Origin: Pristiophorus japonicus
Lineage: Eukaryota
DNA: 64,000 nt
Assembly (NCBI RefSeq): GCF_044704955.1
Contig: NC_091997.1
Location: forward strand, 69,750,001-69,814,000
Direction: 5' to 3'
Position 1 is the first letter of the stretch. Every line of letters begins with the position of its first letter. The notes under the pieces are model-generated. The model searched no databases. It had not been told where the DNA came from and worked only from the letters and a program-made list of their open reading frames with translations. The position numbers and the translations under genes are program-made. Positions 13,996 through 63,220 of this stretch are shown in pieces.

Positions 13996-14811
13996 CTTTT
14001 AATACAAAATCAGAAGCTAAAAAAGTATATTTTTTTCAAAAACAAAACAGGATCTGTGGTTTTAACAAGATACACACCAAGCTGAAAACCATTATGTGGG
14101 TCTGCAGCACTTGCGATTTATTTACCATCAATTCCCATGTATAGTCTTCATTTATAGAAATTACTTTATATTATTAACCTCCCACATTCAATTGGTCAAT
14201 TGTATACAATATGTACCTTAGCAAAAAGCACCTGCAATATTTTAAGATCACAATTCAGTCAGCCTATATTGTCAGTTGTGCCTACTTCAGCATGCAGTTC
14301 CAAGGAAATTTCAAATCTGTTCCGACCAACATTCAAGGATGCTATGCTTCCCAGAAACATTATTATAGTGTAACACGGTAGTTCTATGATAAAGTCACAC
14401 TGACAGTCTACTGTCCAAATTGAGGTGGCCAATTCTTGTTTCAGCTCTGTAGAACCAAACTTAATATTTTATCTGATGAAAGGACAGCGACCTAAAATTA
14501 TTTCTCTCTCCATAGGTATTGCCTGACCTACTCAGTGTTTCCAGCATTTTCTTGGTCTTGAATACACTTAACGACTGAGCCTCCACAGCCCTCTGGGGCA
14601 GAGAATTCCAAAGATTCACCACCCTCTAGAAACTCCTCCTCATTTCAGTCTTAAATGGCCAACCCCTTATTCTGAGACTGTGTCCCCATGTTTAAGCGTC
14701 TCCAGCCAGGGGAAACATTTTCACAGCAGTAACCCAGTCAAGCCCTTCAAGAATTTTATAAGTTGCAATGAGATCGCCTCTCATTCTTCTAAACTCTTAG
14801 GAAATATAGAC

Positions 14812-19599: not shown

Positions 19600-19840
19600 A
19601 AGATCTGGCCATTCCCCTCACACACTACCATCCAGAGTTCCATACTCCTACCACGTGTGACAGTGATTTAACTATACTTCCTCTATCCTAGTATACTGTA
19701 TTTGCTGCTCACGATGTGATCTCCTCTATATTGGGGAGACCAAATGTAGATTAGGTGATCACTTTGCTGAACACCTTCATTCTGTTCACAAGCGCGACCC
19801 TGAGCTCCTTGTTGCTTGACACTTTAATTCTCCTCACTCA
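19600..19840 (+). mobile_element. Penelope-like element, GIY-YIG endonuclease remnant
   Basis: From 19688 reads LVYCICCSRCDLLYIGETKCRLGDHFAEHLHSV...VA*HFNS, the Penelope GIY-YIG pattern, with a stop. Confidence 0.85.
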
Positions 19841-20699: not shown

Positions 20700-20835
20700 C
20701 TACACCATCCCGCTTCCAGTCTGACCTCTCTGTCTTTGACCTACTGTAGTGTTCCAGTGAAGCTCGGGAAACAGCGTCTCATCTTTATTCTGGGCACTTT
20801 GCAGCCACGTGGCATTAACATTGACTTTACAACTT
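20700..20835 (+). mobile_element. Penelope-like ORF C-terminus (likely continuation of the 19.6-19.8 kb remnant)
   Basis: QRLIFILGTLQPRGINIDF matches the Penelope terminal motif (LxTLxPxGLN type). Confidence 0.75.
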
Positions 20836-21439
20836 CATGCCATTTCCCCTCTGACAGTCGGTGTTGATAGGTGTAACAACACTTCCAGGTATAGGGGCGG
20901 GAGCGGGTGCATGCTAGGGGTGGGGATTTCACATTGGTACACTGCCCCCGCTGTAGGCCTTAGGCCCCGAACAACAAGCTTTGGCTCCAGCCTTTGCCCC
21001 GAGCGGGGCCCCCGGGGGAGGGGCAGCTGCAGGACTTTCTCCCGGTGACAGGCCGGGGAACGGCCGCCATCTTGCTGGGGCAGGGGCAGCAGGGCGCATG
21101 CGCGGCCTTTCCCCGGGCCAGGAATCAGGAGGAGACTTGCTGAGTGTTTTCAGCATTTTCTGTTTTTGGTTCAAATTTCCAGCAACTACAGTAGTATTTT
21201 TGCTCTTTCCAATAATAGGCTGGCTCACTTGTTTCGGAGTTTGCAGGGTCAAACTGCACTCCAGAACTTGAGCACATAAGCAAAGTTGACATTTCAGTGC
21301 AGTACCTTTTTTGATGACATGTATACTGTGGCGAGGTATTGTCTTTCAGATGAGAAGTTATATCAAGAGGCTGTCTGTCTGTTCAGGTGGACATTAAAGC
21401 TACTAGTTACAGAAAAACAGAGAGTTCTCTTCATTAATA

Positions 21440-21594
21440 ATAAAAACAGAAAATGCTGGAAATACCCAGCAGGTCATGCAGCATCTGCGGAGAGAGAAAC
21501 AGAGTTAACTTTTCAGGTCGATGACCTTTCGTCAGAACTTCTGTCGAAAGGCCATCGACCTGAAATGTTAACTCTGTTTCTCTCTCCACAGATG
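21440..21594. mobile_element. Penelope-terminal-derived inverted-repeat unit with hammerhead-like motifs
   Basis: 56-bp arms (21482-21537 and 21539-21594, 4 mismatches), each with a CTGACGA..GAAA-like core. Confidence 0.7.
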
Positions 21595-30944: not shown

Positions 30945-31110
30945 TGTGACAAAAGCAAAATACTGCGGATGCTGGAATCTGGAATAAAAACAGAAAATGC
31001 TGGAAATCTCAGCAGGTCAGGCAGCACCTGTGGAGAGGAAGCAGAGTTAACAATTCGGGTTGATGAGTTGCTGCCTGGCCTGCTGAGATTTCCAGCATTT
31101 TCTGTTTTAT
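30945..31110. mobile_element. Penelope-terminal-derived inverted-repeat mini-element inserted in a CR1
   Basis: ~45-bp inverted arms (AAACAGAAAATGCTGGAAATCTCAGCAGG...); 10-bp TSD TTCTTTACTC at 30935-30944 and 31111-31120. Confidence 0.75.
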
Positions 31111-31756
31111 TTCTTTACTCAGAGAGTGGCGAGAATGTGGAACTCGCTGCCACAGGGAGTGGTTGAGGTGAATTGTATAAATACATTTAAGGGGAGGCTG
31201 GACAAGCGTATGAGGGAGAAGGGAATAGAGGGTTATGCTGATAGTTAGATGAGGAAAGACGGGAGGAGCCTCAAGTGGGACGTCCTGAGGTCGTGAAAGG
31301 CGCTATAGAAATGCAAGTCTTTTTTACTTTGAAGTGACTATCTGAGTGTATGCAAGTCACCAGAAAATTATTTAAAATGCAAAGTAAATTTCTGTTAAAT
31401 AAAAATGCAAATACTGCAAATCTGAAATAAACACAATGGAGGAAATGCAAAGTATCTGAATAGAGAAACATAAAGGAGAGGTAATCCTTCGAGTACAAAT
31501 ACTTAGACCTTGTTATAACTTTCTAAAGTTGGATGAATATTCTGCAGTTGATTATCGTTGGGAATCGAGGAAAATTTGTGCATTTTTTTTCAACAGTCTA
31601 ATAAGATGGGTAGGATCGATTGATTGTACATGGTATGCAGAAGGATCTATTTGGCTCTTTGTCGCTACATACTTGTCTGCTTGCCTTTTTTGGAGCGATG
31701 TAACAATTTGCACTGCACTTTTTTGACAGACATGCGACGAGCCACGCCCCCTGTCA

Positions 31757-57918: not shown

Positions 57919-58002
57919 GTTGGCCTGGTCAAGCAAATGACCCAGTAAATGAAGGGTGAGCTCACCCTTCATTTACTGGGTCATTTGCTTGACCAGGCCA
58001 AC
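57919..58002. repeat. Perfect 84-bp palindrome
   Basis: 42-bp arms, no spacer, centred on GAG|CTC at 57960/57961. Confidence 0.97.
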
Positions 58003-58212
58003 ATCCCCAGCATTGAAGCACTGACCACGCTCGACCAGCTCCGCTGGGCAGGCCACATTGTTCACATGCCTGACACAAGACTCCCAAAGCAAGCGCTCTA
58101 CTCGGAACTCCTACACGGCAAGCGAGCCCCAGGTGGGCAGAGAAAACATTACAAGGACACTTTCAAAGCCTTCTTGATAAAATGCAACATCCCCACAGGC
58201 ACCTGGGATTCC
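57988..58212 (+). mobile_element. RTE-clade LINE fragment
   Basis: LDQANIPSIEALTTLDQLRWAGHIVHMPDTRLPKQALYSEL. Confidence 0.85.
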
Positions 58213-58334
58213 TTAAGAAGCACATCATTGTATTTACTCTAAATGTAAACATTTCAAGAGTAGAAGAAGCAACCGACACAAATTGGGAGGAATTTGTCCT
58301 GGGGAGCGCACGGCAAATACAGGGGAGGGGAGAA

Positions 58335-58377
58335 CGGAGTTCTGACGAAGGGTCATCGACCTGAAACGTTAACTCTG
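58335..58377 (+). ncRNA. Minimal type I hammerhead ribozyme motif within a Penelope-type terminal repeat (58335-58457)
   Basis: CGGAGTT-CTGACGA-A-GGGTC atc GACCT-GAAA-CG-TT-AACTCTG: stem I, core, stem II, GAAA, palindromic minimal stem III. Confidence 0.6.
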
Positions 58378-60077
58378 CTTCTCTCTCCACAGATGCTTCC
58401 ATTAACTGAGATCTCCAGCATTAGCTCAGGTTCCAGAATATGCAGTATTTTGCTTTTGTACAGGGGAGAGGAGGGATGGGGGGGTGGGGAAAGAGAGCTG
58501 GTGCGGCTGGGGTAAACAGTCAAATCCTCAATGTACAATGTTCTTACAATGCTGGTAATCTACTAGGAGACTGTACCGGCCCATTTATACTGCCTGGGCT
58601 CCACATTCCTTCAAACCTGAGTCACACGTCTAATTCTGAGCTCACACCCTTAGGCTGGGTTGCACTGGAATGCGAACCTATTCGGAAATTGCTAATTCAA
58701 GTCATGTAATGGTGAAGAGAGATGTTGCAGCTACTGGGTGAAAGGCCAGGTGGATCGAGACCTTTGTCAGAACTCAGCTCTGGTGGGGGTTTTGCGAAGG
58801 GTTGTGCCCATTGCATTTACCTGTTCCCCCCCACCCTGTCTGGATCTGGCAGACTTCCTTCTCCAGCATTGTCCCATTTTAATGGTTTAATCACCCTAGC
58901 AATGGGCAGGTACTTTCACGTCCCTAACATCCTTTTCCTTGCCTTGCTGAGATAATCTTTTATATCCAACAGGTTTTTGCTTTGCTGTTAAGCTGCTCAC
59001 AGGTCAGTCAACCGTTAACCACCTCCAGATCACTGGAGTATCTCGCGTCTCTTTTTCTCCCCTGCCTATTTCTGTTCCACCCGTCATCATCATCAAAACT
59101 CTGCGCGAATGAAAGAACCCGGAAAGGGTGGCAGCAGCAGTAGTAGGGGCATTCAAGCCGGTTTATCCTGTAAGGTCCCTCAAACCACCCACTTAAGGTT
59201 CCAAATCTGTTCATAAATTAATGATCACTTCCTCCCCTATTACTAGGGAAGTCGAGGGTTATGGGGAGCGGGCAGGAAAGTGGAATTGAGGCCAAGATCA
59301 GATCAGCCATGATCGTATTGAATGGCGGAGCAGGCTCGAGGGGCCGAATGGCCGACTCCTGCTCCTATTTCTTGTTATGTACTTCAAACACTCCTGCAAG
59401 GTGGTTTACGGATTTGGTCAGACTTGAGAGAAGGGAATAAGCAAGATTCCTGACAGACCAAAGATGTTTTCTGGTCCGTTAATTGCATTAGAAAGAAGCA
59501 CATTGGTCAGTGTTTTGCTCCTTGGGTAAACTTTTGGTTTTAAGAGTAAATTTGGTGACCACTGCAGTTTGCTCAGTGTCCAATGGTATGAAATGATCAC
59601 TAGTGTACTGTAACTAAAATTATTTTAGTTGAATTATTTACCCATGTTCTTAGCTGAAGACTAAAATAAATGTTAGTGTTGATGATCGATTATAAGGTGA
59701 AGGAATGTATGATTGCTGATGTAATGTACAGAGTTTGAAATAAAATATCCAATGACTATTTTTCACATGTCAAGACTTTGTTTTTAATCTGGGTTTTCCT
59801 TTTCACAATCATTAATTCACTCTGTAATCCAAAATTGACAGATGAAGAAAAACTGAATGCTAGCAATTTAAAAGGCAAGCAGAAAATGCTGGAGAGGCAC
59901 AGCATTCGGAAGAGGAACGATGGTTTTGAATACGGCCCTTTGTCAAAACCGTCTCCCTGTTTCAAGCCTCTCCTAAAATCCTTTGCGACTGACTTTCCAT
60001 CTTTCCCCTTCCAGTTCCTTTTAATTTTCCCGTGCACCTACCCTCGTCGAGAAATGTTTAACAGGGCTGCATAAATG

Positions 60078-61379: not shown

Positions 61380-61680
61380 GTCACACTGATTACACTCCCA
61401 GCCGCCGGGGGCGCTGTGGCGGCCGCTCCTGGGGCCCGGACACTTGTCGGCAGCACTATGGAGACGGCGGGCGGGCGGCCGCGTCACAATGTGCGGCGGG
61501 GGCGCGGTGCTAGGGCCGGGCGGCCAGGGCCGGGCACGGCAGCGAGGGACGGCGGGCCGGCGCCGCGGCGGCCCAGGGCGGCATGAGCGGGCGACCGGGG
61601 ACGGCATGAGCTACCAGCCGGTGGCCGACAGCGAGCTGGCGCAGCAAGACCCCGGTAATGGCGGGGGAGGGGGGTGCTCA
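61380..61680 (+). promoter_or_regulatory. CpG island / promoter of the downstream gene
   Basis: Very high GC and CpG content; CTCF-like GCCGCCGGGGGCGCTG at ~61381. Confidence 0.7.
61606..61654 (+). CDS. First coding exon of a downstream gene, probably FAM219 family (MSYQPVADSELAQQDP)
   Basis: CpG island ~61380-61680, ggcATG start, G|GTAATG donor. Peptide resembles the recalled FAM219A N-terminal FQVPTAHSEMQPLDP; FAM219B neighbours MPI in human. An in-frame upstream ATG exists at 61489. Confidence 0.55.
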
Positions 61681-62610
61681 GGTATCGGGAGGCCAGGTAT
61701 AGGGGGTACCCAGGTGTGTGAGGGTGCCCAGGTATAGGGGATGCTCAGGTGTGTGAGGGTGCCCAGGTATAAGAGATGCCCAGGTGTGTGAGGGTGCCCA
61801 GGTAAAAGAGATGTCCAGGTGTGTGAGGGTGCCCAGGTATAGGGGATGCTCAGGTGTGTGAGGATGCCCAGGTATAAGGGATGCCCAGGTGTGTGAGGGT
61901 ACCCAGGTATAGGGGGTGCCCAGGTGTGTGAGGGTGCCCAGGTATAAGGGATGCTCAGGTGTGTGAGGGTGCCCAGGTATAAAAGATGCCCAGGTGTGTG
62001 AGGGTGCCCAGGTATAAGAGATGCCCAGGTGTGTGAGGGTGCCCAGGTATAAGGGATGCTCAGGTGTGTGAGGGTGTCCAGGTGTGTGAGGATGCCCAGG
62101 TGTGTGAGGATGCCCAGGTATAAGGAGTGCCCAGGTATAAGGGATGCTCAGGTGTGAGGGTGCCCAGCTATAAGAGATGCCCAGGTATAGGGGTTGCCCA
62201 GGTGTGTGAGGGTGCCCAGGTATAAGAGATGCCCAGGTGTGTGAGGGTGCCCAGGTATAAGGGATGCTCAGGTGTGTGAGAGTGCCCAGGTATTGGGGGT
62301 GCACAGGTGTGTGAGGGTGCACAGGTGTGTGAGGGTGCTCAGGTATAGGGGGTGCACAGGTATGTGAGGGTGCACAGGTATAGGGGTGCCCAGGTGTGTG
62401 AGGGTGCACAGGTGTGTGAGGGTGCCCAGGTATAGGGGATGCCCAGATGTTAAGGGTGCCCAGGTATAGGGGATGCCCAGATGTGTAAGGGTGCCCAGGT
62501 ATAGGGGTTACCCAGTTATGGGGGTGCCAGTGTGCCCAGGTAAGGGGTTGCCCAGGTATGGCAGAGTGCCCAGGTGTGTGTGCCAGGATGCCCCGCTGTG
62601 GCAGTGTGCC
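61680..62610. repeat. G-rich minisatellite of alternating ~17-18 bp subunits
   Basis: CCAGGTGTGTGAGGGTGC and CCAGGTATA(A/G)G(G/A)GATGC repeated directly after the exon donor. Confidence 0.93.
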
Positions 62611-63220
62611 CAGGAGGGGAGGGGGGGGGTAAAATGCCCCTGTGTGAAGCTCATGGTCCTTTTGTGGGATGAGGGAGGGAGGACAGGTCAGGTACCCAGG
62701 CATGGAGAGAGGGTCAAATGCTGTGGTGTGAAGATAATGATCCTAGGTGGGCTGGGGTGGAAGAGATCAGGTCCCCAGCTGTGGAGGTCAAAACTCCGCA
62801 GGGCAATCGGGGCACTATTAGAGTGCTCTGCTCATAATTAGAATATTCCTAATTTAAGAATAAAATTATAATGCAATGTTTGTCATTGATAAAGTTTTAT
62901 TATATAAATAACTATAATTGTTAACCATTTTTTATTTGTGAATTTATTATAAAATTATGACCAGTTCAGAAACATTTGAAGTGACTTTTATAATGTTTAA
63001 ATGTATTGTGTCATTTTATTAAATTGAAAATATGAACCCTGGCTCAGCAAGAGATGCGCTTTCAAGGGGGAGGTTAAATGGGCACTTAAATGTTTTCCCC
63101 CAAAATAATTTTCTCCTTCCCTTTGGGATTTGTGTGGAATCTGCCCCCCAGGTGCCTTGTTGCAAGAGAGTATTCCGTGCTGCTAGACGTGACTCTTCCA
63201 TCGAATCTCTTTCTCTAATC

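What the first reader, a model, noticed from the sequence alone, without database searches (positions are those of the whole stretch)
58335..58457. Minimal hammerhead ribozyme motif carried by a dispersed Penelope-type terminal repeat
Seen: stem I CGGAGTT/AACTCTG (7 bp, one G-U) encloses CTGACGA, an extra A, stem II GGGTC-atc-GACCT, GAAA, then CG-T-T. Stem III is only the palindrome AACGTT with no loop. Related motifs occur at 21501-21575 (both strands) and, degenerate, near 14473 and 31045. Known: Penelope-like elements and retrozymes carry minimal type I hammerheads that work as dimers. Inference: a self-cleaving RNA module spread through this genome, here without its ORF, able to cut transcripts that read through it.
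Basis: partly seen in the sequence, partly recalled or inferred. Interest (0 to 1): 0.7.

Follow-up and report, generated by a model that had tools for sequence, protein, structure and literature searches.

The report
Penelope end piece with minimal hammerhead
This is a 122-base leftover of a very common Penelope-type jumping gene that carries a known kind of miniature hammerhead ribozyme motif; it is ordinary, and the ends of its many copies indicate that the element's RNA likely starts at the motif and was likely copied uncut.

Summary
The motif is real. At 58338-58374 lies an intact minimal type I hammerhead, the only strict hit in the window (0 of 100 shuffles). It opens a solo 122-bp insertion (58338-58459, 15-bp target-site duplication) from the pseudo-LTR of an endonuclease-bearing, Neptune-like Penelope element. 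Long copies join it to RT and GIY-YIG coding sequence and carry it at both ends. The genome holds roughly 140,000 insertions, 4,521 with an exact intact motif. Corrections: native stem I is 4 bp, and the 7-bp stem uses junction filler; the other window copies are broken or altered; copies decay neutrally; modelling favours an inactive fold. Copy 5' ends pile up at the first stem I bases (about 15-21%), with a roughly twofold G excess before them, and not at the cut site (about 0.8%). This fits a capped, uncut template. Cleavage and read-through cutting are untested and unlikely for a solo copy. The kind is published (PMC4209133). This scan noted it before on other DNA (411 findings, at least 34 genomes), including the start-site reading.

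The parts
58318..58332 (+). left copy of the target-site duplication (15 bp)
   Evidence: 14 of 15 identical to 58459-58473
58333..58337 (+).
   Evidence: absent from native upstream pLTR, which reads pyrimidine-rich ending in CC
58338..58374 (+). minimal type I hammerhead motif: 4-bp stem I, CUGACGA, extra A, 5-bp stem II with G-U closing pair, GAAA, loopless C-G, GUU triplet
58338..58459 (+). solo insertion of the pLTR end of a Penelope-like element (hammerhead, likely first codons of the ORF, optional tail)
   Evidence: 82% to the in-script majority reference with a 10-nt deletion; 42 matches scored of 1031 candidates
58393..58395 (+). ATG that likely starts the element ORF (inferred); the preceding pyrimidine tract and CAG also resemble a splice acceptor
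   Evidence: in L026 this frame runs on, across one stop, into the element's N-terminal coding region
58459..58473 (+). right copy of the target-site duplication; its first two bases overlap the element end
21439..21594 (.). head-to-head inverted pair of the same repeat, both arms ending near the first stem I base; both motifs altered
30949..31113 (-). same repeat, starting at about +15 (no CUGANGA), with an inverted arm
14472..14552 (+). decayed copy of the same repeat

Best explanation
The stretch is a solo, ORF-less insertion of the terminal repeat of an abundant Neptune-like Penelope retrotransposon and carries that element's minimal hammerhead motif intact; it was likely made by reverse transcription of the first 130 or so bases of a capped, uncut element RNA and is likely inert where it sits. 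Shown: motif, duplication, link to RT and GIY-YIG coding sequence, two preferred 3' ends about 33 nt apart, a 5'-end peak at the first stem I bases, no peak at the cut site. Inferred: the element protein nicked the target and began copying at an internal site (+100 or +133), ran off the RNA 5' end at an initiator-like start (CC/AGTTC) and was joined to the target. The hammerhead was selected in active master elements, where it would cut only as a dimer or with protein help, not in dispersed copies.
For: GIY-YIG coding sequence directly upstream of the repeat in L008, L009, L026. Motif at both ends of a near-full element (L169) and at a pLTR-ORF junction (L161). 3' ends: 26 of 77 at +91..+112 and 47 of 77 at +125..+133, like the PLE tail and the internal RT starts of PMC11167929. 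5' ends: 9 of 77 at -2..+3 against 1.7 expected, P 6e-5 (13 segmental duplicates dropped from 90). Genome-wide, about 1,075 of about 5,150 copies end at 0/+1 (my estimate), against about 0.8% (at most 2.3%) at the cut site (74 of 5,955; 10 of 30 viewed are true ends). G before position 0: about 172 WG against 118 WW, background ratio 0.55-0.78, P under 1e-7. Stem II closing pair in the first 100 of 4,521 listed copies: G-U 40, G-C 32, A-U 27, A-C 1 (counted by hand). Active-like folds lie 2.7 (monomer) and 13 kcal/mol (dimer) above the predicted minimum.
Against: No RNA start or cleavage data: only contigs were available. The G signal is not clean: copies with G at -1 are 198 of 4,525; in 8 of 30 with a detected duplication the G lies inside it in 3 and follows 1-11 other filler bases in 5, never alone; 4 of 30 are inverted junctions; no G excess before +1 starts (41 of 100, background 36-45%). 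Pfam gives GIY-YIG only below cut-off (E 0.017-0.023) and no RT family; PDB gives nothing. The stem II covariation reflects a few subfamilies, not independent events. Nearest-neighbour energies ignore core tertiary contacts.
Confidence: 0.8

Rival explanations
1. One reading: the dispersed motif is a working self-cleaving module that cuts host transcripts reading through it; this copy's longer stem I would help it.
For: Core fully intact and stem I extended to 7 bp, with further purine-pyrimidine pairing beyond. The insertion junction is also held by a contig of another run (X22, 58117-58366, no differences). 4,521 intact motifs exist.
Against: Stem III has no loop, so a monomer cannot form it; PMC4209133 found no monomer cleavage and low dimer cleavage for such a motif; PMC11167929 found cleavage only with protein. 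Predicted minimum fold sequesters the core. GUU is a weaker triplet (recalled). About 3% of insertions keep the motif. No host exon or transcript shown here (one search is only an ORF list).
Confidence: 0.08
2. The 5'-end peak is not a start site but a structural or repair effect: the new DNA folds back through the stem I complement, or the endonuclease cuts its own pLTR there.
For: Fold-back junctions through AGTT/AACT exist (L007, L283, L314, L330, L339). Inverted arms precede 10 of 60 position-0 copies. PMC3846280 discusses self-priming for inverted pLTRs.
Against: 50 of 60 position-0 copies have no inverted arm. The stem is only 4 bp. The peak sits on an initiator-like sequence and has a G excess.
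Confidence: 0.25
3. The short copies are a separate non-autonomous retrozyme or SINE family that amplifies on its own through hammerhead-cut circles.
For: Many copies have the same two ends; animal retrozymes are proposed to derive from pLTRs (10.64898/2026.07.22.740005).
Against: No tandem units at this locus; 5' ends are otherwise scattered over 500 bp of pLTR; short copies viewed carry the same variants as long ones (by eye); no cut-site ends. Tandem arrays were not searched genome-wide.
Confidence: 0.07

Closest known systems
Minimal hammerheads (min-HHR) in pLTRs of metazoan Penelope-like elements, Cervera and De la Pena 2014 (PMC4209133; read parts 1-2 of 4, searched 2 supplement files, file 1 not searchable)
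   Same: Type I, conserved core, extra base between 9 and 10.1, palindromic 15.2-16.2 with no loop, short helix I, mostly solo genome-wide copies in thousands, a few in full elements.
   Different: Helix II is 5 bp (7-8 bp in the Schistosoma families); 10.1-11.1 is G-U here and G-C in only a third of intact copies. No shark or skate entry was found in the supplement files searched.
Poseidon element of Anolis carolinensis (PAc), Frangieh et al. 2024 (PMC11167929; read parts 1-2 of 4)
   Same: Hammerhead at the pLTR-ORF junction; two internal RT starts that define an optional 30-40 bp tail; unprocessed RNA is the main substrate; no reads at the cut site.
   Different: There the ORF starts inside the hammerhead; here it likely starts about 21 nt after the cut site. 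This family has the Neptune/Nematis Zn linker. The 5'-end peak at stem I was not reported in the parts read.
Neptune-type endonuclease-bearing PLEs (PMC8557442, passages; PMC3846280 and PMC2377424, passages)
   Same: RT then CX2-5CxxC linker then GIY-YIG; partial tandems; inverted 5' pLTR; tail; pLTR promoter with initiator-like site.
   Different: Clade placement not tested by tree; no intact ORF was found among 20 long loci.
Non-LTR retrozymes (bioRxiv 10.64898/2026.07.22.740005; read part 1 of 5 and passages)
   Same: Type I or minimal hammerheads derived from pLTRs; found in one chondrichthyan genome.
   Different: Defined by tandem units each with a hammerhead; this is a solo copy of an ORF-bearing family.

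Membership tests
min-HHR of PLEs (PMC4209133) | core CUGANGA, GAAA, UH with helices I and II | tested here: met
min-HHR of PLEs (PMC4209133) | unpaired base between positions 9 and 10.1 | tested here: met
   A58349; A in 49 of 49 copies
min-HHR of PLEs (PMC4209133) | palindromic 15.2-16.2, no or tiny loop 3 | tested here: met
   C58367-G58368
min-HHR of PLEs (PMC4209133) | G10.1-C11.1 pair (a trend in the paper, not part of its descriptor) | tested here: inconclusive
   G-U in this copy; G-C 32, G-U 40, A-U 27, A-C 1 of 100 listed
min-HHR of PLEs (PMC4209133) | located in pLTRs of a PLE | tested here: met
   L169 both ends, L161 junction
min-HHR of PLEs (PMC4209133) | self-cleavage as dimer or with protein | not testable with these tools
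   only folding energies
EN+ PLE, Neptune type | one ORF with RT and C-terminal GIY-YIG | tested here: met
   domain order in 20 long loci; KPADKG, YIDD and YIGET motifs read; Pfam GIY-YIG E 0.017, below cut-off; no Pfam RT or PDB hit
EN+ PLE, Neptune type | CX2-5CxxC linker between RT and EN | tested here: met
   CKHRRCNIC in L018, CKRRRCNNC in L009; shared with Nematis (PMC8557442)
EN+ PLE, Neptune type | partial tandem and inverted pLTRs | tested here: met
   L161 tandem; L152, L160, L169 inverted
EN+ PLE, Neptune type | optional 30-40 bp tail | tested here: met
   bimodal 3' ends, 26 and 47 of 77
EN+ PLE, Neptune type | RT phylogeny within Neptune | not tested
   no reference PLE proteins fetched
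Non-LTR retrozyme | tandem units each with a hammerhead | tested here: not met
   solo copy with duplication at this locus; genome-wide arrays not searched
Rfam hammerhead families | covariance-model match | tested here: not met
   no hammerhead family among 15 matches at E up to 10

The most novel reading that the evidence does not exclude
In this family the transcription start site is the first base of hammerhead stem I. About a fifth of the copies that reach it are complete run-off copies of the capped, uncut RNA 5' end, primed at internal sites, so they are not 5'-truncated 3' ends. The hammerhead cut is dispensable for insertion, and templates with a dead core (G8 to C) still produced new copies.
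Probability: 0.55. Interest if true: 0.42.

Novelty: new member of a known kind. Interest (0 to 1): 0.22.

Why it matters
The motif and its carrier are a published kind, so this copy matters little. The family is useful as a large natural record of Penelope insertion. Its ends bear on the open question of what PLE hammerheads do (PMC8557442 calls it unclear): they suggest that the RNA begins at the ribozyme and is copied uncut, in line with in vitro results for the anole element. That gives a cheap test by CAGE and cyclic-phosphate sequencing.

Tried and rejected
Rfam scan: no hammerhead; miRNA hits below gathering score come from inverted arms. First impression that most solo copies carry an extra G (about half of the 29 best hits) was a bias of my query; genome-wide the G class is 198 of 4,525. 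G excess before +1 starts: not found. Excess of 5' ends at the cut site: not found. Spliced first exon upstream of position 0: rejected, the 60 upstream flanks viewed share no common exon. One G8C subfamily: not supported; G8C copies (78 of the first 100 of 120 listed, against 22 G8U) are scattered over the tree of 41 copies, with one small clade of 4. Upstream LINE-like piece at 57983-58212 is unrelated to the motif (its RTE label is recalled). Pfam and PDB did not name the RT. Public runs: only contigs; RNA status guessed, shares under 0.1, so no evidence on expression, start or cleavage; they show the same repeat and both 3' ends in coded organisms A, B, C, D and J. Literature searches listed no paper on hammerheads of shark PLEs or on a start-site peak; subscription papers and Repbase are not covered, and supplement file 1 of PMC4209133 and bioRxiv supplements were not seen.

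Full report
Observation. The loose core pattern is not significant alone. A strict minimal-hammerhead descriptor finds only this site in the window, none in 100 Markov controls, 2 in 1 Mb of random genome and 1 in 10 Mb of control. Rfam has no hammerhead match. The related window copies at 21439-21594, 30949-31113 and 14472-14552 are real but each is altered or lacks part of the core.

Boundaries. Positions are counted from the first stem I base, A58338 = 0. The element runs 58338-58459, between a 15-bp duplication (58318-58332 and 58459-58473, 14 of 15 identical) with 5 filler bases on the left. Native upstream sequence ends in CC, so native stem I is 4 bp; the three outer pairs come from the filler. 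Whether the filler is a short fold-back or added bases is unresolved.

Carrier. The genome is 5.9 Gb; the repeat landscape looks like a cartilaginous fish (recalled, not tested). Longer copies extend about 300 bp upstream into GIY-YIG coding sequence. An RT-thumb query has 29,670 candidates, 150 scored. In 20 long loci the order is N-terminal region, RT thumb, endonuclease, repeat, with tandem (L161) and inverted (L152, L160, L169) arrangements; L169 has the motif at both ends. A CX4CxxC linker precedes the endonuclease, which PMC8557442 (passages) gives for Neptune and Nematis. Pfam support is weak and PDB gave nothing; no tree with references was made.

Abundance and decay. One hundred 10-kb stretches at fixed round coordinates gave 26 hits, 24 insertions by my count, so roughly 140,000 genome-wide. 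An exact intact-motif pattern has 4,521 matches, about 3%. In 49 position-ordered copies, non-CpG core sites differ in 4.5-5.2% of cells and stem I in 3.6-5.6%, like invariant flank sites, so single copies decay neutrally; subfamily differences fall in the flank, N7, loop 2 and the stem II closing pair. That pair is G-U, G-C or A-U in 99 of 100 listed copies, which fits selection in a few master elements. One exception: G8C occurs in 6 of 49 and outnumbers G8U 78 to 22; the copies are not one clade, but four with different flanks group together.

Ends. Ninety copies were taken in genome order by a pattern downstream of the motif; 13 segmental duplicates were dropped. 3' ends are bimodal, 26 of 77 at +91..+112 and 47 of 77 at +125..+133, matching the PLE tail, which PMC11167929 (parts 1-2 read) ties to two internal RT starts. 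5' ends fall at -2..+3 in 9 of 77 against 1.7 expected. Genome-wide counts agree: base before position 0 is C 4,027, G 198, A or T 300; WW 118; non-native starts at +1 377. Corrected for flank composition about one in five copies reaching +1 ends at 0/+1; this figure is my estimate. At the cut site 74 of 5,955 have non-native preceding bases, and 10 of 30 viewed are true ends, about 0.8%, near the background of 0.5% per base.

The extra G. 29 of 30 G-class copies are non-native upstream. WG to WW is about 1.46 against 0.55-0.78 in background. An extra G marks capped full-length L1 insertions (PMC11702581, one passage), and CC/AGTTC fits the initiator consensus (recalled); Penelope promoters lie in the pLTR (PMC2377424 and PMC3846280, passages). 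Against: no lone G between duplication and element in 8 resolvable cases, 4 of 30 are inverted junctions, and +1 starts have no G excess. The start-site reading is likely, not shown.

Activity. The predicted minimum fold pairs UGACG of the core with CGUUA of the cut site; the open monomer has probability 0.004, and the active dimer lies 13 kcal/mol above the dimer minimum. PMC4209133 (parts 1-2 read) reports no monomer and low dimer cleavage for such a motif; PMC11167929 reports protein-assisted cleavage that insertion does not need. Public runs held only contigs and could not show starts or cuts. Cutting of host transcripts by this solo copy is therefore unlikely but untested.

Comparison and verdict. 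It works like, and meets the testable features of, a PLE minimal hammerhead; it is not a retrozyme at this locus. The seven searches listed no paper on this family, but coverage is partial. The scan's own notes hold 411 such findings in at least 34 genomes, several with the same start-site and uncut-template reading; I had noted that lead before the look-up, and those notes are not independent support. Nothing was noted near this place. New member of a known kind; interest 0.22.

Noticed in passing
window 57919-58002: Near-perfect 84-bp hairpin formed by an inverted piece of the adjacent LINE-like fragment; Rfam mir-2831 hit at 48.8 bits, far below gathering 90.
   Followed up: no
window 19721-19833, 20760-20843, 21139-21207: Endonuclease and pLTR fragments of the same element, possibly one old copy broken by later insertions.
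   Followed up: no
window about 22750 onward, and 61611-62742: Long low-complexity tandem arrays (period about 25-27 bp in the first); the second gives long open frames.
   Followed up: no
L399, L400, L402, L403 (G000:C2:370-372 Mb): Four copies with G8C, shared pLTR variants and different flanks form a clade: possible local burst from a template with a dead core. G8C copies seem frequent near contig ends.
   Followed up: partly
L007, L283, L314, L330, L339: Inverted junctions joined through the AGTT/AACT stem I complement, a rare fold-back or template-switch class.
   Followed up: partly
L171-L187 (G000:C1:0.6-3.1 Mb): Segmental duplicates: three repeat copies recur with the same flanks; 13 dropped before counting.
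   Followed up: partly
window 58375-58395: Pyrimidine tract, CAG and ATG right after the hammerhead resemble a splice acceptor; sense-strand intronic copies could be exonised.
   Followed up: no
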